The notes under the pieces: generated by a model | The model's database searches: none | Seen by the model: only the letters and a program-made list of their open reading frames with translations | Told to the model about the DNA's origin: nothing | Assembly (NCBI GenBank): GCA_038727515.1 | Contig: JAVYVS010000008.1 | Location: 1 to 14,047 of the forward strand | DNA: 14,047 nucleotides | From: Candidatus Methanomethylicia archaeon | GTDB taxonomy: Archaea; Thermoproteota; Methanomethylicia; Culexarchaeales; Culexarchaeaceae | Direction of reading: 5' to 3' | Translations under genes and position numbers: made by a program | Part shown: positions 2 to 14,047 of the stretch, one piece after another | Layout of the letters: each line of letters begins with the position of its first letter | Numbering within the stretch: position 1 is the stretch's first letter

Positions 2-862
2 TATGTTTCAGGTTTTAATATGCCATTTATAATTGAACGTAGAGAGGAAGTTGAAGAATCTAGTTGTCAAATTTGGTTTGATGGTAATATAGATCATTTA
101 AGCTATTTACGTTATCCAGAGGTTAGAGATTATAAAAGAGCCTTCGAAGATGATAAAGGACCTAACACTGGCGGTATGGGTTGCTATATGGATTCAAATT
201 TTAAACTCCCATTTATGTTTGATGAAGATTTTGAAGCTGGATATGATTTAGCTCGTAGGACTATTAAGAATGTAGAGAGATGGGCTGAAGAAAATGATTT
301 TGATACTTCTGGTATGAAGCCTTGTATGTATTATTTAGCTATGGCTCATCCCCATAGGGTTTTTGAGGGTAATGTGGGTAGACCTGGAGATCCTGAAGAT
401 ATTCCACCATTATTATCAATGAAGAATGATCTCATTGAATTCTATTTACATTTATGTGAAGGTAATCCTGAAAGACTTGAATTTGATTTAAAGGCTATTG
501 TATTGGTTTATGTTGTTCCACCAAATTATGGTGGTAAATCTAGTGTAACTCAAAGTATAATTTTAGATTTACCTGAACTCTTTAATACAAGTATTTGCGG
601 TGATAAACTTATGATTCCAGGGGATGTGGAAGTTAGAATGGATGGACGTATTTATGTTAGAAGTTCTAGGAGTGTTGCTGCTATTGGTATTGGTAGAAAT
701 TTAGATGAAGCTGCTTTAAAAGCTCATGAACTTGCACTTTATATTGAGGATAAATCTATTCCTAAAGGATTTTTATGGCATAGGAGTGATATTGGTTTAA
801 AGAGTCATGTGGAGAAGAGTATTGAGCATAGGAGAGATTTGAAGAGGAGGTTTGGATTTTAA
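2..862 (+). CDS. purD: Phosphoribosylamine-glycine ligase (GAR synthetase)-like protein, C-terminal part; 5' end lies outside the window
   Basis: The frame is open from base 2 (YVSGFN-MPFIIE...), so ATG20 is probably internal. It carries the PurD signatures RDYKRAFEDDKGPNTGGMG and E-x-N-x-x-R-PGDPE, plus C-domain motifs PPNYGG, SSRSVA and HRSDIG. The sequence is divergent from canonical PurD. Confidence 0.85.
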   Translation, partial: YVSGFNMPFIIERREEVEESSCQIWFDGNIDHLSYLRYPEVRDYKRAFEDDKGPNTGGMGCYMDSNFKLPFMFDEDFEAGYDLARRTIKNVERWAEENDFDTSGMKPCMYYLAMAHPHRVFEGNVGRPGDPEDIPPLLSMKNDLIEFYLHLCEGNPERLEFDLKAIVLVYVVPPNYGGKSSVTQSIILDLPELFNTSICGDKLMIPGDVEVRMDGRIYVRSSRSVAAIGIGRNLDEAALKAHELALYIEDKSIPKGFLWHRSDIGLKSHVEKSIEHRRDLKRRFGF

Positions 863-4917: not shown

Positions 4918-6714
4918 TTAACTTTTTTCTATTGGTGTATGTTCCATTATGAATTTTATAATTTCAAATTGTGTATTCACTCTATTAATTATCTTTGCTA
5001 TTCCATGACCTTCATCAACAATCCTAATATATTTGACTTCTCTACCCATCTTCTTCATGGCTTCTATCAATTGTTCTGCTTCACTTATTGGAACTCTTGG
5101 ATCATTTGCTCCATGTATAACCATTAATGGAGCTTTAATTTTCTCAATATGGCTTATTGGGCTTAATTTAATCATTATATCATACATTTTATCTGGATCT
5201 CCATATTCATTTATTCTATACTTCCTCCTCCATGGTCCAGTATTCCTTATAAACGTTACAAGATTTACTATTCCAACTCTTTCCACTCCACAGCTCCAGT
5301 AATCTGGGAATAATGCCATACTCATTAATGTAGCATATCCACCATATGATGCTCCTGTAACTGCTACCCTACCTTTCTCTAAGAGTCCTTCTTTCTCAGC
5401 CCAATCTACAAGTGCACCTATATCTTTTAATGAATCTAATCTTTTCTCTCGATCATCTAGATGTATGAAGCTTTTACCATATCCACTTGAACCTCTAAAG
5501 TTTGGTGAGAGAACTATGTATCCAAGTCTTACAAGTATTTGTGGTAGGAATTGAAATGTTGGTCTATCTTGCCCTTCAGGTCCTCCATGTATTGTTACTA
5601 CTGCTGGATATGGTGGTTTCCCATTTTTCGGTCTATATATTAATGCTGGTATCATCATTCCATCCCAACTCTCATATCTAATGACTTCTGGTTTTACATT
5701 TTTATTCATATCAATATCGAATTTTGGTGAATTTGTCATTTGTGTTTGTCCAGTACCTTCATGCCAAATCCATATTTCATTTCCAATCTTTGGATTTGAA
5801 ATTGAGTATGCTAATCCCATCATACCCCAAGATAATTCATTTATAACTCCAGAGGGTGTTTTCATTTCCCTTATATATGTGAAATCTATTTTTGCTATGT
5901 ATAGCTTTGAATATCCATCAACATTTTCTACATATGCTACTTTATCCTTATTTGGTGATAATTCTATTAATTCTACATCTCTATTTGTTTGATATATGAA
6001 TTTCCAATCATTTTTACCGAGATCATATATTGCAATACCCATATACTCTGAATCATTATTTGTTAGAAATAGAAATCTTTCTTCATCTAAGACTTTTGGA
6101 CTTATATTTCTAGCTTCCCCTTCATGTTTAGTTAAATTCTTCAATTTACCACTTTTAATATTTAATAGGTATATATCACTATCAAGATTTGTATTGTTAT
6201 GTATTATTAACATGTTTTCATCATTAATCCATTCAGCAATATTATTTGTTCCTTCCATTTCAATTATTGGCCCTATCACCTCCCCTTTAATATTATAGAT
6301 GTATACATCGAAGTCTACTCCATTTCTTCTATTTGATGTAAATCCAAGTTTTGTACCATCTATACTCCATGCTCCAACATTATTTATATATGTGTAATCT
6401 CCTGCTACGTGAATTAGGTTTTTCTGATTTAAATCGTATATTGATATTCTCCATCTCTCATTTCCATCTAAATCATTTCCAAAGGCTATAAGTCCATTTT
6501 CACTTATGGATATTTCTCCTACTCTTTGCTCCAATGGTATTAATGGTTCATTTCTATATGCTTCCTTCATCCATGGTATTGGGACTCCAGTAATATCACT
6601 TAAATAGATAATTCTATATGATCTTTTGAAGGCTCTTGGGATTGTGGCAGATCTAATACTTAAGAATTTCTTTATTTCAAGCCATATTGGGTTGTATTCA
6701 TATTCTAAAGGCAT
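4918..6714 (-). CDS. S9 family serine peptidase (acylaminoacyl-peptidase/prolyl oligopeptidase-like)
   Basis: N-terminal beta-propeller-like repeats (FTSNRRNGVDFDVY), then IHGGPEGQ, PNFRGSSGYG, nucleophile GASYGG, Asp in HGANDPRVP and His in DEGHG. ATG6714 is preferred over TTG6723. No signal peptide seen. Confidence 0.93.
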   Translation of the reverse strand: MPLEYEYNPIWLEIKKFLSIRSATIPRAFKRSYRIIYLSDITGVPIPWMKEAYRNEPLIPLEQRVGEISISENGLIAFGNDLDGNERWRISIYDLNQKNLIHVAGDYTYINNVGAWSIDGTKLGFTSNRRNGVDFDVYIYNIKGEVIGPIIEMEGTNNIAEWINDENMLIIHNNTNLDSDIYLLNIKSGKLKNLTKHEGEARNISPKVLDEERFLFLTNNDSEYMGIAIYDLGKNDWKFIYQTNRDVELIELSPNKDKVAYVENVDGYSKLYIAKIDFTYIREMKTPSGVINELSWGMMGLAYSISNPKIGNEIWIWHEGTGQTQMTNSPKFDIDMNKNVKPEVIRYESWDGMMIPALIYRPKNGKPPYPAVVTIHGGPEGQDRPTFQFLPQILVRLGYIVLSPNFRGSSGYGKSFIHLDDREKRLDSLKDIGALVDWAEKEGLLEKGRVAVTGASYGGYATLMSMALFPDYWSCGVERVGIVNLVTFIRNTGPWRRKYRINEYGDPDKMYDIMIKLSPISHIEKIKAPLMVIHGANDPRVPISEAEQLIEAMKKMGREVKYIRIVDEGHGIAKIINRVNTQFEIIKFIMEHTPIEKS

Positions 6715-6800
6715 ATTAATCAAGTATATTTCTGTTGCTTTAACCTTTAATGGTATCGTTTAAATATCTTCTATGGAAAATTTTCATTGGTGATTTACTA
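6715..6800. promoter_or_regulatory. Divergent promoter region shared by the S9 and CocE/NonD genes
   Basis: 86-bp intergenic region with plus-strand TATA-like TTTAAATA (6759-6766), SD-like GGTGA (6789-6793) before TTG6801, and an AT-rich TTAAA box on the minus strand upstream of ATG6714. Confidence 0.5.
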
Positions 6801-8498
6801 TTGTCTTTTGAAGTCTATTTTGATGTTAAAGTTCCAATGAGGGATGGTGTTAAACTTTCCACTGATATATACCTTCCACGTAGAGGTGGGAAGTATCCAA
6901 CAATATTGATTAGAACTCCATATAATAAGGCTCTTCAAAGTGAAATTAAGCATGGAACTAGAGATGTAGAATTCTTTGTTAAACATGGTTATGCAGTAGT
7001 TATGCAGGATGTTAGGGGTAGAGGGGATTCTGATGGTGATTGGCATCCCTTTATAAATGAGGGTTTTGATGGTTATGATACTATAAAGTGGATTGGAGAA
7101 CAAGATTGGTGTGATGGAAATATTGCTATGATGGGTGGCTCATATAGGGGTTGGGTTCAATGGTGTGCTGCTAGGCTTAATCCTCCCAATCTTGTAACTA
7201 TGATTAGTACTGCAGCTGCTGGTAGATGGTTTAGAGAACTTCCATACTATAATGGTTTAGTCACTTTAGGAATGATTGAATGGCTTAATTATGTTGGTGG
7301 TAGAGTTGTTCAAAACCCTGATTCTGTGGATTGGAATAGGGTTTTATGGCATTACCCAATTAAAACCATGGATGAAGTTATTGGTAGAGTTAATACTGTA
7401 TGGAGGATTTGGCTTGAACATTCAAAACTTGATGATTATTGGAAGAGTATACTGTTAACTGAAGAGGATTTTAAGAGGATAAATATGCCAGTACTTCACA
7501 TAACCGGTTGGTATGATGGTGATCAGCCTGGAGCCATATATTTCTATGAAGGTATGATCAAATATTCTCCAGCTAGAGATAGACAATATCTTGTTTCTGG
7601 ACCTTGGGATCATGCTGGAACGAGAATTCCTAGGAGGATTTTGGGTGGTGTAGATTTTGGTCCAGATGCAATTATAGATCTACTAAGATTGCATTTATGG
7701 TGGTTTGATTATTGGTTGAAGGGTGATCAGAAAGCTTTTAGGAATATTCAAGAATTCTTTGATGGCGGTAGATGTTTAACTTTTGTTATGGGTTTAAATA
7801 AATGGGTTTCCCGTGATATATGGCCTCCTAGAAATGTTCATTATGAAAATTGGTATATTGATAGTGATGGGAGAGCTAATAGTTTAAGGGGGGATGGTAG
7901 ACTTCAAAATAAAATTCCATTGATTGAAAGTTTTGATTCTTATACATATGATCCAATGGACCCAGTGATCTCTTCTGTTGATTTCAACTTCTATTCTCCC
8001 AAGGCTATTGAAACACCATTGGATTCAAGGTCTATTGAATCTAGATTTGACGTCCTAGTTTATACTAGTGAACCTCTTAAAGAACCTTTAGAGATTGCTG
8101 GTAAGCCTAGAATGGTATTGTATGCTTCAAGTGATTGTTTAGATACTGATTGGATATGTCTACTTTCAGATGTTCATCCCAATGGTAAATCAATACTCTT
8201 TAATTATGGTGGTATTAGAGCTAGATTTAGAGAATCCTTTGAGAAGGAAGTCTTCTTAAAACCTAATGAAATCTATAGATTTGAATTCGACTTCTTCTTT
8301 GATACAAACATTCTAATTGATGTTGGGCATAGAATTAGACTTTCCATAACCAGTAGCTATTTCCCAAGGTTTGATAGAAACTTTAATAGTAATGAGCCTA
8401 TTGGTGAAATGTCTAAGGTTAATATAGCTCATAACAATGTTTTTCATGGAGGAAGATTTCCCTCATCAATAATGCTACCAATTGTAAAAAATAAATAG
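6801..8498 (+). CDS. CocE/NonD family hydrolase (peptidase S15/alpha-amino-acid ester hydrolase-like)
   Basis: VPMRDGVKLSTDIYLP, RTPYNK, QDVRGRGDSDG, nucleophile GGSYRG, Asp in GWYD, His in GPWDH, and a C-terminal jelly-roll (GHRIRLSITSSYFPRFDRN). TTG6801 has GGTGA 7 nt upstream and is more plausible than ATG6750. Confidence 0.93.
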   Translation: MSFEVYFDVKVPMRDGVKLSTDIYLPRRGGKYPTILIRTPYNKALQSEIKHGTRDVEFFVKHGYAVVMQDVRGRGDSDGDWHPFINEGFDGYDTIKWIGEQDWCDGNIAMMGGSYRGWVQWCAARLNPPNLVTMISTAAAGRWFRELPYYNGLVTLGMIEWLNYVGGRVVQNPDSVDWNRVLWHYPIKTMDEVIGRVNTVWRIWLEHSKLDDYWKSILLTEEDFKRINMPVLHITGWYDGDQPGAIYFYEGMIKYSPARDRQYLVSGPWDHAGTRIPRRILGGVDFGPDAIIDLLRLHLWWFDYWLKGDQKAFRNIQEFFDGGRCLTFVMGLNKWVSRDIWPPRNVHYENWYIDSDGRANSLRGDGRLQNKIPLIESFDSYTYDPMDPVISSVDFNFYSPKAIETPLDSRSIESRFDVLVYTSEPLKEPLEIAGKPRMVLYASSDCLDTDWICLLSDVHPNGKSILFNYGGIRARFRESFEKEVFLKPNEIYRFEFDFFFDTNILIDVGHRIRLSITSSYFPRFDRNFNSNEPIGEMSKVNIAHNNVFHGGRFPSSIMLPIVKNK

Positions 8499-8505
8499 GG
8501 TTATA

Positions 8506-10011
8506 TTAAACCTTCAAATATTTTTCTTCAAGATACTCTAATAGGTATATGGGATTCATTTCTTCATTAAAGCTCCTCTTTAAAAGCTCTTTTGGCTCAT
8601 ATGTTGAACCCCAAATATGCACTTTCTCCTTCAAATATTCTCTTATGGGTTTAAAGTTTAATTTCATAATTTCTTCATCGATTTTAATTTTCTTCATCAT
8701 ATGTTTCCTTATTTGTGCTGCAATTATATTACCAATAGTGTAATTACAGAATGATCCAAGTCCACTACTCCAATGTATATCTTGTAGTACTCCTTCACTA
8801 TCAGATTTTGGTCTAACCCCTATAAGTCTTTCAATTTCAGAATTCCAAACTTCTGGTAATTCACCTATTTTTACATCTCCCGTAATCATTGCTTTTTCAA
8901 GTTTATACCTCAACAATATGTGTAGATTGTATGTTACTTCATCTGCATCAACTCTAATTAAACTTGGTTTTACAGTGTTAAAGTAATAGTATAATTCTTC
9001 TGGAGTATATTTCTCAACGAATTTCAAATGCTTCTTTATTATTGGGTATATTGCTTCAGCGAAAACTCTACTCCTACCAATTATATTCTCCCAAAATCTA
9101 GATTGACTTTCATGCATCCCCCCACTAACTCCTGTGGCTAACAATGTCCCTGAAAGTCTTTCATCTATTTGTAATTCATATAGGGCATGTCCATATTCAT
9201 GTATCGTACTATACATACTTCTCTTGAAATCCTTCCCCTCATATCTAGTTGTTATCCTAACATCCCTTATACCCATACTAGTTGTAAATGGATGTGTAGA
9301 AACATCAAATCTTGATCTAACTCCAAGTGGATACTCAAAAATCTTCAATAACTCTAAATTTAGATTCTTCATATCCTCAACATTATATTCAACCTTTTCC
9401 AATTCATGTTCCGGTTTATATAAGCCTTTAATTTGAATAACACTTAGAGTTCTCCTAATTCCAGGTTCTAGAACGTTGAATATTCTATCAGCATCTCTCG
9501 TTTTAAAACCTTCTTCATGTAGGTCTAGTAGTGCATCATATGGATGTTCTTCATAACCTAAATATTCAGCGAATTTCTTCATTAAATCCACTATTTTCTC
9601 CAGGTATGGTTTGAATATTCCGTAATCACTTTTTGATCTTGCAATCCTCCATTGTATAGTGGCTTCAGAAGTTGTTTTAAAATATTCTTTTAATAAATCC
9701 TCTGGTATTGCTGTTGCAATCTTTATCCTCCTCTTTAAAACTCTTATCAAACCTCTCTCATAATCATTTAATTCTTCAATTCGCTTTTCAGCTTCTTCAA
9801 CTAGACTTCTAAGCTCTGGAGATTTAAGTATGCTTTGACCAATGGCTTGAAGTTCTGCTCTAGCCATACCTCTTTCCATGGCGCCTTCTTGAGGCATTGA
9901 AACTTCAATATCCCATCCCATTAAACTATCTGAAACATCCAAAGCCCATATAACCCTAGATTTCTCCACAATCTTCTTCACAATATCGTTTTTGAAAAGT
10001 TCTTGACTCAT
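8506..10011 (-). CDS. M32 family thermostable carboxypeptidase (carboxypeptidase Taq/Pfu type)
   Basis: HPF, DVRITTRY, zinc motif HEYGH, HESQSRFWEN, IRVDADE, GVLQDIHW and NYTIG motifs; about 500 aa. Confidence 0.96.
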   Translation of the reverse strand: MSQELFKNDIVKKIVEKSRVIWALDVSDSLMGWDIEVSMPQEGAMERGMARAELQAIGQSILKSPELRSLVEEAEKRIEELNDYERGLIRVLKRRIKIATAIPEDLLKEYFKTTSEATIQWRIARSKSDYGIFKPYLEKIVDLMKKFAEYLGYEEHPYDALLDLHEEGFKTRDADRIFNVLEPGIRRTLSVIQIKGLYKPEHELEKVEYNVEDMKNLNLELLKIFEYPLGVRSRFDVSTHPFTTSMGIRDVRITTRYEGKDFKRSMYSTIHEYGHALYELQIDERLSGTLLATGVSGGMHESQSRFWENIIGRSRVFAEAIYPIIKKHLKFVEKYTPEELYYYFNTVKPSLIRVDADEVTYNLHILLRYKLEKAMITGDVKIGELPEVWNSEIERLIGVRPKSDSEGVLQDIHWSSGLGSFCNYTIGNIIAAQIRKHMMKKIKIDEEIMKLNFKPIREYLKEKVHIWGSTYEPKELLKRSFNEEMNPIYLLEYLEEKYLKV

Positions 10012-10029
10012 AAATCGTCAAGTATACTA

Positions 10030-10044
10030 TTATTAAACTTTAAA
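10030..10044 (-). promoter_or_regulatory. Putative BRE/TATA for a leaderless M32 transcript
   Basis: On the minus strand TTAAAG is followed by TTTAATAA, ending about 20 nt upstream of ATG10011, with no SD motif. Confidence 0.4.
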
Positions 10045-10051
10045 TTAAACT

Positions 10052-10681
10052 TTAAGTTACCAATGTTTTTACTGCCTTTAAAACTCCTTTAATAGCTTTC
10101 ACTTCACTCTCAGCCCAGCATATTATAGCCACATGGCTTCCATATATTCCCACAATATTTTTCAAAGCTTCTTTCTCATCTCTACAATATTCTTCAATAG
10201 GTTTATCCATACTTGGAATTATGATTTCCCCATTTCTAAGGATTATTGTGGTAGCTCCTTGAGCTCCAGCTCTAACAGCTTCATCCCTCTGTTTTAATCC
10301 ATTGGTTACTTTATCCAATTTATCTCTAACAATAACCAAAGCCTTAACCTTCCCTGGAGCTAGAAACTTAAATTCATTTTCACCATAAACATTGAAGAAT
10401 TCTATACCAACATCATCAAAATACTCTTTTAATGCTTTTTCACCTTCACTTGTAATTTCACATCCCCTAGCATCAATTTTTATAAGTTTATTTTCTGAAA
10501 ACCTTTTCATAATTCCCCTTACAGTTCCTTGAGGTATACCTATAGCGTCAGAGAGTCTATACCTACCAATAACTCCACCTCTAGAAATCATAATCAATGC
10601 TATAGCTAAATCTTCCAAATCAATTTTTGGGGTTGGCCCTCTACAACTCTTCCTCCAATTCTTCAAAATTTCATTTAACAT
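10052..10681 (-). CDS. Winged-helix + DUF4443-like domain protein, putative transcriptional regulator
   Basis: N-terminal wHTH pattern IGRYRLSDAIGIPQGTVRGIMKRF...GCEITSEG, and C-terminal GLKQRDEAVRAGAQGATTI matching my recollection of archaeal DUF4443 proteins. Confidence 0.75.
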   Translation of the reverse strand: MLNEILKNWRKSCRGPTPKIDLEDLAIALIMISRGGVIGRYRLSDAIGIPQGTVRGIMKRFSENKLIKIDARGCEITSEGEKALKEYFDDVGIEFFNVYGENEFKFLAPGKVKALVIVRDKLDKVTNGLKQRDEAVRAGAQGATTIILRNGEIIIPSMDKPIEEYCRDEKEALKNIVGIYGSHVAIICWAESEVKAIKGVLKAVKTLVT

Positions 10682-10714: not shown

Positions 10715-11332
10715 TTATGGGGGTTTAGGAGGCCATTCAGCTGTATTCGTATATTTCCATGCAAATATTTCTCCATTAATTGGTATATACCTATCACATG
10801 CTATTTCTCCAAGAATCCACATCTTCTTTTCAGAATCCCATCTCCACCACATCCAATATAATAGCCTATTTGGATCATTGTAAACATCATTTATAGCTTC
10901 AATAAATACTCCAAATGGATATACACTATACTTCACTTTTACAATGCCCTCTAAAGCTTTAATCATACTCTCACCCATAACTATCTTTGTACCATTATAC
11001 CATTTCCTACTTCCATTACCATAATCCACGAGTATATTAACACTTATAACTCCACCAATAATTCTATGTAACTTTAAAGTTTCATTTTCCAATTTCTCTA
11101 TGGAATTCATAAGTTCTAAATCTCCCCTTCTAACAGCTTCTTCAACTATCCTCATTAATTTTGAAGTTAAATTATTCATTTGATTTCTAGCATCTTCAAT
11201 TAACCTATTCATTTCAATAATCTTTCTAGAGGCATCCAACATTTGATTATAGTAGTATATGGATATGGATGTAGCTGTTAAAGCCCAAATTAATAGGGTT
11301 AAAGCTATAATCCAAGGGGTTCTACTAGCCAT
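10715..11332 (-). CDS. Membrane-anchored DUF4430 (transcobalamin-like C-terminal/beta-grasp) domain protein
   Basis: N-terminal hydrophobic helix (WIIALTLLIWALTATSISIYYY), a heptad-rich coiled-coil stalk, then VNILVDYGNG...YPFGVFIEAINDV...YWMWW...GEIACDRY...FAWKY typical of DUF4430. Overlaps the upstream ECF-S gene by 8 nt and has a GAGGGGG SD. Confidence 0.78.
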   Translation of the reverse strand: MASRTPWIIALTLLIWALTATSISIYYYNQMLDASRKIIEMNRLIEDARNQMNNLTSKLMRIVEEAVRRGDLELMNSIEKLENETLKLHRIIGGVISVNILVDYGNGSRKWYNGTKIVMGESMIKALEGIVKVKYSVYPFGVFIEAINDVYNDPNRLLYWMWWRWDSEKKMWILGEIACDRYIPINGEIFAWKYTNTAEWPPKPP

Positions 11333-11852
11333 TTAGAATCCCCCTCATTCTAGGTATTAACATTGATATTATCATTGCAGATGAAAATTCCACTATGGGA
11401 CCTATGGCATATAGTGTTCCACCCATAACTGGGATGAAGAGACCTATAAAACCAAGTATTAAAGCTTCTTTAATAGGCATTAATGGTATGTAGAGTAGTA
11501 CTGATGATAATATATCGTATACGAGTATTAGTATTGTCGATACTACGAGGATCTCAAGGCTACATGGATTCTTCCTATACCATATCAATCCACTTAGAAA
11601 TCCAATTAAACCACAACTTAAACTCGTTATAAGAGTCCATATACCCATACCCAAGAATATATCTGAAACTATAAAGCTTAAAGCTCCTACAAGAAATCCA
11701 TTTAATGGTCCCAGTATTGCTCCAGAAATTATTGAGAATACTATTGGGAAATTTATTATTGGCATGACACCTATAAATATATGCTTTACAAGTCTAAGTG
11801 CTACTGATGCTGCAGTTAAATTTGATATTAACGCTATATCCCTAGTTTTCAC
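11325..11852 (-). CDS. ECF transporter S-component (substrate-binding membrane subunit, CbrT-like)
   Basis: 175-aa very hydrophobic protein with 5-6 TM segments, N-terminal helix TRDIALISNLTAASVALR, and GAILGPLNGFLVGALSFIVSDIFLGMGIWT characteristic of S-components. GTG start. Confidence 0.82.
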   Translation of the reverse strand: MKTRDIALISNLTAASVALRLVKHIFIGVMPIINFPIVFSIISGAILGPLNGFLVGALSFIVSDIFLGMGIWTLITSLSCGLIGFLSGLIWYRKNPCSLEILVVSTILILVYDILSSVLLYIPLMPIKEALILGFIGLFIPVMGGTLYAIGPIVEFSSAMIISMLIPRMRGILNG

Positions 11853-11885: not shown

Positions 11886-12305
11886 TTATTTCTTCTTTCT
11901 CTTCTTTAAATCTTCTTCATCTTCTTCAATAATCCTTATATCAGCTCCCTTCCTCGGTAAAATATCACTAATTATACTTTCCTTTTCCTTAACCTTTTTA
12001 ACCTCTTTAACTTCCTCTTTAGATTCTTCTTTTATCTCCACTATTTCCCTAGCCTTTCTTCCTCCCTCTATAATTATCTTTGCACCTGGATATTTCCTCT
12101 CTAAATCTCTCTTTAAATCTTCTACATCTACATCTTCTCCAGCTTTTACATGTATTTCCGTGCCCTCAGGCGTTTGTGTTATTGATATTGAATATCCACT
12201 TCCAATACTCATTTCTTCAAATCTCTTAAACATTTTCTCCCATTCATCAAACCATGAATCATCAAAGAAACTATCAAATATTGATTTCCTCTTCTTTCTA
12301 CTCAT
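11886..12305 (-). CDS. Hypothetical highly charged protein; N-terminus reminiscent of archaeal small heat-shock protein N-terminal regions, no alpha-crystallin domain
   Basis: SIFDSFFDDSWFDEWEKMFKRFEEM, then GYSISITQTPEGTEIHV, LKRDLERKYPGAKIIIEGG and a K/E-rich tail. ATG12305 has GAGGGG 7 nt upstream; the alternative ATG12320 overlaps the purN stop (TAATG). Confidence 0.7.
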   Translation of the reverse strand: MSRKKRKSIFDSFFDDSWFDEWEKMFKRFEEMSIGSGYSISITQTPEGTEIHVKAGEDVDVEDLKRDLERKYPGAKIIIEGGRKAREIVEIKEESKEEVKEVKKVKEKESIISDILPRKGADIRIIEEDEEDLKKRKKK

Positions 12306-12319
12306 CTTTAATCCCCTCA

Positions 12320-13339
12320 TTATCCTCCTTTAAGCTTCCCTAAGAATTTTTCAGTGTTCACGATGAATCTTTCATGTTCACCTTCACCAATAATGATATC
12401 TTTATACATTGCTGATACTTTAAATGTTATCTTCCTCCCCTCAATTTTCACTATTTCCGATGTTACTTTAATTTTCTCTCCTATCGGTGCTGGATTTAAA
12501 TGTTTCACGTTTACACTAGATCCAACGGTTATATATCCTTCTGGTAAGCTTTGTTGTGCAAGTTTATTTGATGTTATTTCCATGAATGCTATCATTGATG
12601 GTGTTGATAATACTTGTACATCTCCTGAACCAATATTTCTAGCTGCATGTTCAAAGCTAGTTTGATATTCTTCAGTTAAACTCATTCCAACTTTAAGATT
12701 ATGTTCTACACTAGTCGTTGGGGGAAGTATTCTAACTCTTCTACCTTCAACCTTCAATCTACCTTCCTGAAATAGCTTTATAGCTTCAATTATTATCTCT
12801 TGTTCAGCTTTTTGAACCTTAGGTTTTAAGGTATCTGGAGTATCATCTTCCTCCACTGGGACTGCTTTCTGTAGTATTATTGGACCTGTATCTACACCTT
12901 CATCTACAAAATGTAGTGTACATCCAGTAACTTTAACCCCATAATCTAAAACAGCCTTATGAACTTCTAAATCCATTCCACCGGCAAATGCTGGTAGTAG
13001 TGAGGGATGTATATTCATAATCTTCCACCTATACTTATTCACAAACCATGGACTAAGTATACGCATATAACCTATCAGCAATATCAAATCCACTCCACGT
13101 TTATCTAATTCAGCTGCCACCTCCCTATCATAAGTCTCCCTATCCTTACCCTTAGGATCAATAAATATTGCTTCAACACCCCTCTGCCTAGCTCTCTCAA
13201 GTATATACGCATCTCTCTTATTACTAATCACACATACAACTTCCACATCTCTAAGTCTACCATCTTCAATAGCTTTAAAAATCCCCTCTAAATCTGTTCC
13301 ACGCGTTGAACCAAGAACTCCAATTCTAAGTTTACCCAT
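12320..13339 (-). CDS. purN: Phosphoribosylglycinamide formyltransferase (PurN) fused to a C-terminal FlK-like hot-dog thioesterase
   Basis: aa 1-205: GSTRGTD loop, LIGYMRIL, NIHPSLLPAF, TGCTLHFVDEGVDTGPII (catalytic N, H, D present). aa ~215-339: VLSTPSMIAFME, TVGSSVNVKHLNPAPIG, GEGEHERFIV (FlK-type T/E/H). One uninterrupted frame. Confidence 0.9.
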   Translation of the reverse strand: MGKLRIGVLGSTRGTDLEGIFKAIEDGRLRDVEVVCVISNKRDAYILERARQRGVEAIFIDPKGKDRETYDREVAAELDKRGVDLILLIGYMRILSPWFVNKYRWKIMNIHPSLLPAFAGGMDLEVHKAVLDYGVKVTGCTLHFVDEGVDTGPIILQKAVPVEEDDTPDTLKPKVQKAEQEIIIEAIKLFQEGRLKVEGRRVRILPPTTSVEHNLKVGMSLTEEYQTSFEHAARNIGSGDVQVLSTPSMIAFMEITSNKLAQQSLPEGYITVGSSVNVKHLNPAPIGEKIKVTSEIVKIEGRKITFKVSAMYKDIIIGEGEHERFIVNTEKFLGKLKGG

Positions 13340-13388
13340 AGACTAACCCATACTCTTATATGCTTCAGTATAAAATTAACTTATCTAG
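13340..13388. promoter_or_regulatory. Compact 49-bp divergent promoter between purN-thioesterase and the creatininase-family gene
   Basis: Plus-strand CTTATATG (13355-13362) lies about 27 nt before ATG13389; minus-strand TTTTATAC (13375-13368) lies about 29 nt before ATG13339. Confidence 0.5.
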
Positions 13389-14047
13389 ATGTACCTCGAA
13401 GAACTAACTTCAGAAGACCTTAAAGAAATAGTCAACTTTTGGAATATAGTTATAGTTCCAGTGGGCTCATTGGAAGTTCATGGACCACATCTACCCTTAT
13501 CAACAGACACTATAATAGTTGAAGCAATTGCGAAAAGGGTCATAGAAAAATTAAAGGATTCAGATATTAAAGTCCTCATTGGACCTAGAATTAGATTTGG
13601 ATGTTCAGGTGAACATATACGTTTCCCTGGAACAATAAGTTTAAACTGTGAAACCATGATACAATTAATATATGAATTATGCCTATCCCTAGCTAAAAAT
13701 GGATTTAAAAACATAATTCTACTAAATGGTCACGGAGGTAATGAAGCTCCACTAAAAGCTGCAGCAGTAAAATTGAGGGATGAAGCAAAAGTAATTGTTG
13801 CAATAATCAATTGGTTTGAACTTACATCTAGTGGATTTACTGATCATGCAGGTCAAATAGAAACTTCAATAATACTAAGCCTAAACATAAAACCTGGAAT
13901 AACTCTAAAAGGATTAACTGAAAGGAAGGCTTCTTCAAAATATGTATCACTTAAATCTCCAGTACAAATACCATTACCAGACATGTGGAATCACACCTGT
14001 GGACATGGTTATATTGGGGATCCATCAAAATCAAACATTGAACTAGG
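13389..14047 (+). CDS. Creatininase/ArfB/MftE-family amidohydrolase, 3'-truncated by the window end (absent from the ORF track)
   Basis: Manual translation from ATG13389: MYLEELTSEDLKE...VPVGSLEVHGPHLPLSTD...FGCSGEHIRFPGTISL...LLNGHGGN...DHAGQIETS...GYIGDPSKSNIELG, with all family metal-ligand motifs and no stop before 14047. Confidence 0.92.
   Translation, partial: MYLEELTSEDLKEIVNFWNIVIVPVGSLEVHGPHLPLSTDTIIVEAIAKRVIEKLKDSDIKVLIGPRIRFGCSGEHIRFPGTISLNCETMIQLIYELCLSLAKNGFKNIILLNGHGGNEAPLKAAAVKLRDEAKVIVAIINWFELTSSGFTDHAGQIETSIILSLNIKPGITLKGLTERKASSKYVSLKSPVQIPLPDMWNHTCGHGYIGDPSKSNIEL

What the first reader, a model, noticed from the sequence alone, without database searches (positions are those of the whole stretch)
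12320..13339. PurN fused in-frame to a fluoroacetyl-CoA thioesterase (FlK)-like hot-dog domain
Seen: a complete PurN (catalytic Asn/His/Asp intact) continues through a short linker (LPPTTSVEHN, about 12727-12698) into a complete FlK-type domain with the Thr/Glu/His triad and the HER arginine. The second domain has no start codon or SD in front of its typical LKxG beginning, which favours a real fusion. Known: PurN is normally stand-alone or fused to other purine enzymes (PurH, PurD/PurM), and many archaea use formate-dependent PurT instead. I do not recall a PurN-thioesterase fusion. Inference: the domain could link GAR formylation to short acyl-CoA/formyl-CoA turnover, supply or proofread C1 units, or sense CoA thioesters, which would give a function to the widespread orphan FlK homologues.
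Basis: partly seen in the sequence, partly recalled or inferred. Interest (0 to 1): 0.75.

Follow-up and report, generated by a model that had tools for sequence, protein, structure and literature searches.

The report
Conserved PurN-thioesterase fusion enzyme
A hot-spring archaeon makes its only GAR formyltransferase (a purine-synthesis enzyme) as one protein joined to a small FlK-type thioesterase domain; the join is real, old, and arose separately in some gut bacteria, but nothing found so far shows that the two halves work on the same pathway.

Summary
Window 12320-13339 (-) is one 339-aa ORF. It has a canonical PurN domain (res. 1-205, NCBIfam PurN above cut-off), an 8-aa linker, and a complete FlK-family hot-dog domain (res. 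214-339) that keeps the Thr/Glu/His/Arg catalytic set.

It is not an assembly artefact. The same fused frame occurs in 4 of 5 other genomes of the family (Culexarchaeales-type archaea, one named Ca. Culexarchaeum yellowstonense). dS is above 1, both domains are under purifying selection, and the linker has no indels.

In a sister family the two genes are separate but adjacent, with the stop codon overlapping the next gene's start region. The same PurN-then-FlK order arose independently in a few gut Bacteroidales (Rikenellaceae-type MAGs).

The proposed functional link to GAR formylation is weak:
- FlK-like genes stand alone in many archaea that have no formyltransferase at all.
- They show no purine or folate neighbourhood in 16 genera.
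- They are also fused to HAD phosphatases, nucleotidyltransferases, Nim-like and thioredoxin-like domains.

Most likely this is a fusion of two co-transcribed, independently acting enzymes, dimerised through the hot-dog domain. It is a new variant of known kinds and of moderate interest. I found no paper describing it.

The parts
12320..13339 (-). Whole purN-flK fusion ORF (339 aa plus stop)
   Evidence: The same fused frame is found in G001, G003, G004 and G005. AF2 model pLDDT 95.6, pTM 0.75.
12725..13339 (-). PurN (GAR transformylase) domain, res. 1-205. Catalytic N109 (13013-13015), H111 (13007-13009), D150 (12890-12892).
   Evidence: TIGR00639 191 bits, above cut-off. PDB 3auf E 1.5e-53, aligned to its C-terminus. 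Foldseek 3auf TMt 0.90. It is the only Formyl_trans_N in the genome.
12701..12724 (-). Linker, res. 206-213 (PPTTSVEH). Contains the C5 run at 12720-12724.
   Evidence: The linker has the same length in four orthologues but a different sequence (PAKTDIEH, PAKVNIEH). Its pLDDT is lower but above 50.
12323..12700 (-). FlK-family hot-dog thioesterase domain, res. 214-339. T246 (12602-12604), E254 (12578-12580), H280 (12500-12502), R324 (12368-12370).
   Evidence: Pfam PF22636 E 5e-33. PDB FlK 3kv7/3p2q E ~4e-10 with residue-level alignment. Foldseek 3p3f TMt 0.87. Invariant residues listed in A1. dN/dS 0.10-0.17.
13340..13388 (.). 49-bp divergent intergenic region between the fusion and the creatininase-family gene. 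Presumed promoter region.
   Evidence: Coordinates. A/T-rich TATA-like words are visible. Promoter function was not tested.
11886..12320 (-). Downstream 144-aa ORF. Its ATG overlaps the fusion's stop (TAATG). No family match.
   Evidence: Res. 30-91 are conserved at 69-74% in L002-L005.
11325..11852 (-). ECF-transporter S component in the same gene string
   Evidence: Pfam ECF-ribofla_trS 49 bits. The best NCBIfam match is the folate-family S component TIGR04518, 37 bits, below the cut-off of 60. Its position is conserved in L003-L005.
10715..11332 (-). DUF4430-like protein, overlapping the end of the S-component gene
   Evidence: Weak Pfam hit, E 0.009. Conserved in L003-L005.
13389..14045 (+). 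Divergent creatininase-family amidohydrolase, cut by the contig end
   Evidence: Pfam Creatininase E 1.5e-52. All NCBIfam equivalogs are below cut-off. The same divergent partner is present in L003, L004 and L006.

Best explanation
The gene encodes a bifunctional protein. It was made by fusing two neighbouring, translationally coupled genes: purN and a FlK-family hot-dog thioesterase gene.

Shown:
- The N-terminal domain is a standard 10-formyl-tetrahydrofolate-dependent GAR transformylase and the only one in the genome. Fhs and FolD can supply its formyl donor, and PurH is present for the second formylation.
- The C-terminal domain is a complete FlK-family hot-dog domain with the catalytic Thr, His, Glu and pocket Arg intact, and it is under purifying selection.
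- The sister family has the two genes separate, with the purN stop inside the SD/start region of the thioesterase gene. A small deletion across that junction is enough to explain the fusion.

Inferred:
- The C-terminal domain is an active thioesterase for a short acyl-CoA. Arg120 is retained, and in FlK that residue makes the acyl pocket small.
- FlK-type active sites form at a dimer interface, so the fusion should be at least a dimer carrying two PurN domains.
- The two activities are chemically independent. The fusion was probably kept for co-expression, stoichiometry or stability, not for channelling.
For: The ORF and its domains.

Conservation of the fused frame:
- 4 of 5 family genomes carry it.
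- It was seen in 12 sequences of the 90% cluster, including a 1.58-Mb contig, and in a named Ca. Culexarchaeum yellowstonense protein, WP_304330045.1.
- dS is above 1, with dN/dS 0.016-0.025 for PurN and 0.10-0.17 for FlK, and there are no linker indels.

Split but adjacent form: in G006 the purN stop TGA lies within GGTGA, 8 nt before the flK ATG.

Trees: the FlK domains of the fused proteins are sister to the G006 solo gene and nest inside the solo genes of the same order.

Genome context:
- One Formyl_trans_N and one FlK in the genome.
- No purT over cut-off.
- purH, folD and fhs present.

Evidence that the functions are independent:
- FlK-like genes occur in G007, G009, G020 and G043, which have no Formyl_trans_N gene at 92-99% completeness.
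- Purine or folate families are not among the 25 commonest of 155 families matched by 121 neighbour ORFs of 16 genera. A BLAST for purN, folD, pyrG, guaA, purD and 5-FCL found only one 5-FCL-like neighbour.
- FlK is also fused to HAD, NTP_transferase, Nim-like and thioredoxin-like domains.

Published FlK data: the active site lies at the dimer interface, Arg120 shapes a small pocket, and the homologues have no defined function (PMC2903362).
Against: The same PurN-then-FlK order arose independently in Archaea and in Bacteroidales. The adjacency or fusion is kept across at least two archaeal families. Together these hint that selection favours the pairing itself. In another archaeon (G044) the FlK-like gene sits between pyrG and guaA, 5 kb from a PurN-FolD fusion and a 5-formyl-THF cyclo-ligase gene. 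No enzyme activity was measured. Thioesterase activity, substrate and oligomeric state are all inferred. The AF2 pTM of 0.75 leaves the mutual orientation of the domains open.
Confidence: 0.6

Rival explanations
1. The two domains are metabolically coupled. The FlK-like domain hydrolyses a C1-C2 thioester tied to the formyl-folate pool, for example formyl-CoA or an S-formyl-pantetheine species. It would act as a relief valve or proofreader for GAR formylation, a role comparable to PurU, which this genome lacks.
For: The fusion arose convergently in two domains of life, with the same domain order. The genes are adjacent and translationally coupled in the sister family. The pocket Arg that makes the acyl site small in FlK is retained (PMC2903362). 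There is no second Formyl_trans_N gene, so no PurU. In G044 the arrangement is pyrG-flK-guaA next to PurN-FolD-5FCL. From my own knowledge, not tested here: 10-formyl-THF dehydrogenase passes the formyl group to a phosphopantetheine thiol, which is a chemical precedent.
Against: FlK-like genes persist in genomes without any Formyl_trans_N gene. There is no purine or folate enrichment around solo FlK genes. The fusion partners are promiscuous and unrelated. In Millionella, PurN and FlK lie 1.4 Mb apart. The bacterial fusion has no purine or folate neighbours. It was found in only 1 of 401 sampled Bacteroidales, and that one was the centre genome itself.
Confidence: 0.2
2. The hot-dog domain is mainly a structural or regulatory module. 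It would serve dimerisation or thermostabilisation, or sense CoA thioesters to tune PurN, and not act as an enzyme in its own right.
For: Hot-dog domains are obligate dimers (PMC2903362). The domain sits at the C-terminus of most of its fusion partner types (in the HAD-type P0329 it is N-terminal), as expected of a generic add-on module. It evolves 5-10 times faster than the PurN domain.
Against: All four catalytic or pocket residues, and 8 of the 9 residues reported as conserved in FlK homologues, are invariant in the fused archaeal and most bacterial forms. That is unnecessary for a scaffold. The fusion also occurs in mesophilic gut bacteria, so thermostability is not a general reason.
Confidence: 0.15
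3. The fusion is an assembly or sequencing artefact, such as an indel in the C5 run, or a recent accident in one strain.
For: The junction contains a C5 homopolymer. The genome is a 12-contig MAG.
Against: Four other species-level genomes and dozens of metagenome sequences keep the same frame with different linker codons and no C5 run. dS is above 1 across the gene with no frame break.
Confidence: 0.02

Closest known systems
PurN, phosphoribosylglycinamide formyltransferase 1 (NCBIfam TIGR00639; solved structures 3auf, 2ywr, 1cde)
   Same: The full-length domain has the NIHPSLLP and Asp motifs. It shares 50% identity and TMt 0.90 with 3auf. It is the sole GAR transformylase of a genome that also has fhs, folD and purH.
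   Different: It carries a C-terminal hot-dog domain. The known PurN fusions seen here are with PurH/MGS, AIRS (PurM) and FolD. The phosphate-loop sequence is GSTRGTD instead of the usual G-S/T-N, and the unfused archaeal relatives share this.
FlK, fluoroacetyl-CoA thioesterase of Streptomyces cattleya (Pfam PF22636; PDB 3kuv, 3kv7, 3p2q; PMC2903362)
   Same: Same hot-dog fold (TMt 0.87). Thr42/His76/Glu50 and Arg120 are conserved, as are 8 of the 9 residues reported as conserved among homologues. The size is similar, about 125 aa.
   Different: Only about 27% identity. The Phe36 position is Asp. It is fused to PurN. Whether the organism makes fluoroacetate was not examined. The substrate is unknown.
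Uncharacterised FlK homologues TTHA0967 (2cwz), TM0581 (2q78) and 3qoo
   Same: Same family, also with no defined function.
   Different: Those are stand-alone proteins. 2cwz has Gln in place of Arg120 and 2q78 has His in place of Glu50, whereas the window's domain keeps the FlK set.
Other FlK-domain fusions in gut bacteria (HAD-IA+FlK, NTP_transferase+FlK, Nim-like+FlK, thioredoxin-like+FlK)
   Same: The FlK domain is C-terminal, the total length is about 290-370 aa, and the bacterial FlK domains form one clade.
   Different: The N-terminal partners have unrelated chemistry. This argues that the module is generic, not specific to purine synthesis.

Membership tests
PurN (GAR transformylase, TIGR00639) | Whole-domain score above the curated equivalog cut-off | tested here: met
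   191.4 bits against a cut-off of 150.1. PurU and Fmt models score far below their cut-offs.
PurN (GAR transformylase, TIGR00639) | Catalytic Asn-His (NIHPS) and Asp of the formyl-transfer site | tested here: met
   N109, H111 and D150 are present and aligned with 3auf and 2ywr. Their identity with E. coli N106/H108/D144 rests on my own knowledge.
PurN (GAR transformylase, TIGR00639) | Pathway context: formyl-THF supply and the rest of de novo purine synthesis | tested here: met
   fhs, folD and purH are found, and a purD fragment lies at the window start. There is no purT over cut-off. Only part of the pathway was searched.
PurN (GAR transformylase, TIGR00639) | GAR formylation activity | not testable with these tools
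   Needs an enzyme assay or complementation of a purN purT mutant.
FlK family hot-dog thioesterase (Pfam PF22636) | Profile score above the gathering cut-off, and the hot-dog fold | tested here: met
   113.6 bits against a cut-off of 27. Foldseek 3p3f TMt 0.87, rmsd 1.5.
FlK family hot-dog thioesterase (Pfam PF22636) | Thr42-His76 dyad with Glu50 from the partner protomer | tested here: met
   T246, H280 and E254 are aligned and invariant in 11 homologues. Dimer formation was not tested.
FlK sensu stricto (fluoroacetyl-CoA-specific) | Arg120 small-pocket residue | tested here: met
   R324 lies in GEHER. Its role is described in PMC2903362.
FlK sensu stricto (fluoroacetyl-CoA-specific) | Phe36 gate residue | tested here: not met
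   By ungapped extension of the alignment, Phe36 falls on D240. All homologues in A1 have D/E/N there (GSG-D/E/N). The residue's importance is suggested by the PDB entry 3p3f, an F36A mutant, and by my own knowledge.
FlK sensu stricto (fluoroacetyl-CoA-specific) | Association with fluoroacetate biosynthesis (fluorinase locus) | not tested
   No search for a fluorinase was run. Nothing of that kind lies in the window.

The most novel reading that the evidence does not exclude
The FlK-like domain acts on a formyl or other C1-C2 thioester that is linked to the 10-formyl-THF pool. It would work as a PurU-like release valve or proofreader next to GAR transformylase. The independent PurN-FlK fusions in Archaea and Bacteroidales would then be the first clue to the physiological substrate of at least part of the large orphan FlK family.
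Probability: 0.15. Interest if true: 0.7.

Novelty: new variant of a known kind. Interest (0 to 1): 0.4.

Why it matters
FlK homologues are widespread in bacteria and archaea. According to the one structural paper I could read, they have no defined function apart from the fluoroacetyl-CoA enzyme of one Streptomyces. A conserved fusion that arose twice, to the sole GAR transformylase of an organism, is one of the few genomic handles on this family, and it gives a cheap, direct experiment. The evidence gathered here warns against over-reading it: the module also fuses to unrelated enzymes and lives in genomes without any formyltransferase. For annotation, public records call these proteins simply 'phosphoribosylglycinamide formyltransferase' and miss the second domain.

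Tried and rejected
Gene neighbourhoods were obtained through the genome search, the fetch from genomes and the search for related loci instead.

2. The word-based search of the FlK region at near lengths found only the archaeal clade. The bacterial fusion surfaced only through the all-against-representatives HMMER search and the profile search of longer proteins. Only the best 150 and 30 hits are listed, so weaker-scoring fusions may exist unseen.

3. The ESM Atlas returned only ordinary PurN clusters at scores below 0.8, which is uninformative.

4. Literature searches found no paper on a PurN-thioesterase fusion. The Culexarchaeia paper does not mention purine genes or thioesterases.

5. Earlier notes of this scan held nothing on FlK or PurN fusions beyond another first-reader note on the same stretch.

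6. I tested whether solo FlK genes sit with purine or folate genes, using 121 neighbour ORFs from 16 genera. They do not. The recurrent neighbours are the CCA-adding enzyme, LigT, MCM and RFC, which reflects synteny within one family.

7. The polarity of fusion versus fission is not settled. In the PurN tree the fused P0009 groups with the unfused P0010/P0012 (support 92, not starred). In the FlK tree all fused forms are one clade (support 91). Both trees were 'quick' builds.

8. The read-through PurN matches with internal stops in G048 and G097 were not followed up.

Full report
**1. What is there**

The minus strand of the window carries one uninterrupted ORF from 13339 to 12320: 339 codons, ATG start, TAA stop.

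- Pfam places Formyl_trans_N on residues 5-187 (E 7.5e-49) and the FlK family PF22636 on residues 231-330 (E 5.4e-33, 113.6 bits against a cut-off of 27).
- The NCBIfam equivalog model for PurN scores 191.4 bits against a cut-off of 150.1. The PurU and Fmt models stay far below theirs.
- Against solved structures, the N-terminal 205 residues align end to end with PurN of Symbiobacterium toebii (3auf, E 1.5e-53). This includes the NIHPSLLP motif, the Asp-containing strand, and the very C-terminus ...GRRVRIL, which is also where 3auf ends.
- The last 134 residues match the fluoroacetyl-CoA thioesterase FlK (3kv7, 3p2q, E about 4e-10). FlK Thr42, Glu50, His76 and Arg120 align to T246, E254, H280 and R324.
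- An AlphaFold2 model built on 47 sequences is confident (mean pLDDT 95.6, pTM 0.75). Foldseek finds PurN structures (3auf, TMt 0.90) and FlK (3p3f, TMt 0.87) for the two halves.

One qualification applies. Phe36 of FlK is the residue mutated in PDB entry 3p3f and is linked to fluoroacetyl selectivity. It corresponds to Asp240 here, and to D/E/N in all aligned homologues. The domain belongs to the FlK family but should not be expected to share FlK's specificity.

**2. Is the fusion real?**

Yes.

- The window is the whole of contig C8 of a 1.59-Mb, 12-contig genome estimated 93.6% complete.
- Four of the five other genomes of the same family carry the same fused frame at 83-87% identity. The fifth is only 45% complete.
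- The 90%-identity cluster of the protein holds 12 sequences from several assemblies, one on a 1.58-Mb contig. A related cluster of 49 includes WP_304330045.1 of Candidatus Culexarchaeum yellowstonense. More distant fused forms go down to 72% identity (P0009).
- Codon comparison with three orthologues gives dS above 1. dN/dS is 0.016-0.025 for the PurN part and 0.10-0.17 for the FlK part. The linker keeps the same length but has a different sequence (PAKTDIEH, PAKVNIEH) and no C5 run.

An indel artefact or a one-strain accident is excluded.

**3. Where it came from**

In the one genome of a sister family (G006), purN (212 aa, 84% identical) and the FlK-like gene (58% identical) are separate, on the same strand and abutting. 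The purN stop TGA lies inside GGTGA, 8 nt before the ATG of the second gene, and a GTG overlaps the stop by 4 nt. That is the usual picture of translational coupling.

Aligning the junctions shows that the fused linker corresponds to the tail of PurN (LPKTNR...) joined to the head of the thioesterase (MEIKLNPGM against VEHNLKVGM). A short deletion across the stop suffices to make the fusion.

In a tree of FlK domains, the fused archaeal domains form one group (support 91), sister to the G006 solo gene (87), inside the solo genes of the same order. In the PurN tree, the fused P0009 groups with the unfused G006-type sequences (92, not starred). A secondary fission in that lineage therefore cannot be excluded.

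A third family of the order (G007, G009, G010) has the FlK-like gene alone. G007 and G009 have no Formyl_trans_N gene at all.

**4. Does it occur elsewhere?**

In an even sample of 401 Thermoproteota genomes, the full-length match is confined to the window's family and the adjacent pair to G006.

A HMMER search of 1.84 billion representatives listed only one other full-length hit among its best 150, P0233 (324 aa, 36% identity). It has both Pfam domains and passes the PurN equivalog cut-off. It belongs to gut Bacteroidales MAGs from yak, buffalo and sheep (MBO7278382.1). Four species-level genomes hold it (L014-L017).

A profile search of longer proteins added further bacterial clusters: P0311-P0315 and P0332. 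These have different linker lengths, and P0332 has HIR in place of HER.

- The bacterial PurN halves nest inside Bacteroidota PurN (100*) and the archaeal ones inside archaeal PurN (99*).
- The FlK halves likewise separate (94 and 94).
- The architecture therefore arose at least twice, with the same domain order.
- It is rare in bacteria. Unfused Bacteroidota purN loci have no FlK within 4 kb. Millionella has the two genes 1.4 Mb apart. In an even sample of 401 Bacteroidales, only the centre genome showed the fused match.

**5. Genome context**

The fusion is the only Formyl_trans_N gene and the only FlK gene of the genome.

- No purT reaches its cut-off; the only hits are carbamoyl-phosphate-synthase-like.
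- purH (AICARFT), folD and fhs are present, the last two adjacent to each other.
- A purD fragment lies at the window's own start.
- The organism therefore formylates GAR with 10-formyl-THF made from formate. This agrees with the THF branch described for Culexarchaeia (PMC9723716).
- No Pterin_bind (folP-type) or HPPK gene was found.

Downstream of the fusion, on the same strand and conserved in three other genomes of the family, lie:

- a 144-aa ORF without family, whose ATG overlaps the fusion's stop;
- an ECF-transporter S component, whose best NCBIfam match is the folate-family model, though below cut-off (37 against 60 bits);
- a DUF4430-like protein.

A creatininase-family gene is the divergent neighbour, 49 bp away. 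It is also conserved in G006. The string could be a folate-use module, but that is a lead, not a finding.

**6. Does the fusion reveal what FlK homologues do?**

The evidence is mostly negative.

(a) FlK-like genes are present in G007, G009, G020 and G043, which have no Formyl_trans_N gene at 92-99% completeness.

(b) I took up to four ORFs on each side of solo FlK genes in 16 Thermoproteota genera, 121 ORFs in all, and scanned them against Pfam. The commonest families were AAA ATPases, the CCA-adding enzyme, LigT, MCM and RFC. No purine or folate family was among the top 25 of 155. A BLAST with purN-folD, pyrG, guaA, purD and 5-FCL found only one 5-FCL-like gene, near the G020 copy.

(c) The FlK domain is also fused to HAD-IA hydrolases (the commonest, in Bacteroidaceae), to a sugar-phosphate nucleotidyltransferase-like domain, to a Nim-like flavoprotein domain (Ruminococcus), and to a ResA-like thioredoxin domain.

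(d) The bacterial fusion has no purine or folate neighbours.

On the other side stand the double origin of the fusion, the conserved adjacency, and one more case. In G044 the FlK-like gene sits between pyrG and guaA, 5 kb from a PurN-FolD fusion followed by 5-formyl-THF cyclo-ligase.

**7. Most likely mechanism**

The N-terminal domain does the housekeeping GAR formylation.

The C-terminal domain keeps every residue needed for FlK-type catalysis, including 8 of the 9 residues reported as conserved among FlK homologues. It also keeps the Arg that in FlK closes the acyl pocket to something as small as a two-carbon acyl group. It is therefore probably an active thioesterase for a short acyl-CoA.

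In FlK, Thr42 and His76 of one protomer meet Glu50 of the other at the dimer interface. The fusion should therefore be at least dimeric, tethering two PurN domains.

I rate independent action of the two enzymes, fused from an operon pair, at about 0.6. True metabolic coupling (formyl or other C1-C2 thioester turnover linked to the formyl-folate pool) is at about 0.2. A mainly structural or sensing role is at about 0.15. An artefact is at about 0.02. Activity, substrate and oligomeric state are all inferred.

**8. Novelty and verdict**

Both domains are well-known families. The sequences are already in public databases, labelled only as PurN. I found no paper that describes the architecture. 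The one structural paper read here states that FlK homologues have no defined function.

This is a new variant of known kinds: a real, conserved domain architecture that evolved at least twice. It offers a simple biochemical test, but on present evidence it does not explain the FlK family. Interest 0.4.

Noticed in passing
window 11325-11852 (-) and 10715-11332 (-): An ECF-transporter S component (best NCBIfam match: folate-family TIGR04518, below cut-off) and a DUF4430-like protein follow the fusion in a string conserved across the family. The genome gave no hit for Pterin_bind (folP-type) or HPPK. Folate salvage, not synthesis, is therefore possible.
   Followed up: partly
window 11886-12320 (-): A 144-aa ORF rich in charged residues with no Pfam or NCBIfam family. 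Its ATG overlaps the fusion's stop (TAATG), and residues 30-91 are 69-74% conserved in four related genomes.
   Followed up: partly
window 13389-14045 (+): A creatininase-family amidohydrolase lies divergent from the fusion across 49 bp. All NCBIfam equivalogs (MftE, creatininase, IolN, ArfB) are below cut-off, so its substrate is open. The pairing is kept in L003, L004 and, with one gene inserted, L006.
   Followed up: partly
window 2-862 (+): The C-terminal part of a PurD-like (GARS_A) gene is cut by the contig end. The enzyme that makes PurN's substrate therefore lies 11.5 kb from purN on the same contig.
   Followed up: partly
L063 (G044:C1:22000-34000) 8350-9870 (+) and 9854-10423 (+): A 506-aa PurN-FolD fusion (Formyl_trans_N + THF_DHG_CYH + THF_DHG_CYH_C) is followed directly by a 5-formyl-THF cyclo-ligase gene in another Thermoproteota family.
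   Followed up: no
L063 1560-4804 (-): An FlK-like gene (156-aa ORF) sits between CTP synthase (pyrG) and a GMP-synthase-type PP-loop gene (guaA) on one strand. This is the only solo FlK found inside a nucleotide-synthesis string.
   Followed up: partly
proteins P0316-P0331: The FlK domain is fused to HAD-IA hydrolases (many clusters, one with 267 members, Bacteroidaceae), to an NTP_transferase domain, to a Nim-like FMN-binding domain (Ruminococcus) and to a ResA-like thioredoxin domain. All are uncharacterised two-domain proteins of gut bacteria.
   Followed up: partly
window 4918-10011: Three peptidase genes lie in a row: prolyl-oligopeptidase S9 at 4918-6723 (-), X-Pro dipeptidyl-peptidase S15 at 6750-8498 (+), and carboxypeptidase Taq M32 at 8506-10011 (-). 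This fits the protein-degrading lifestyle proposed for Culexarchaeia.
   Followed up: no
window 13339-13270 region; PurN res. 10-18: The PurN phosphate-binding loop reads GSTRGTDLE instead of the usual G-S/T-N-L-Q. The unfused archaeal relatives (G006, Bathyarchaeia-type PurN) share this, so it is unrelated to the fusion.
   Followed up: no
G048:C85:22617-23315 and G097:C36:46955-47659: PurN matches in another family extend to query residues 235-237, through two or three stop codons. This could be an aligner overrun or a decayed remnant of a downstream FlK-like start. It was not examined.
   Followed up: no
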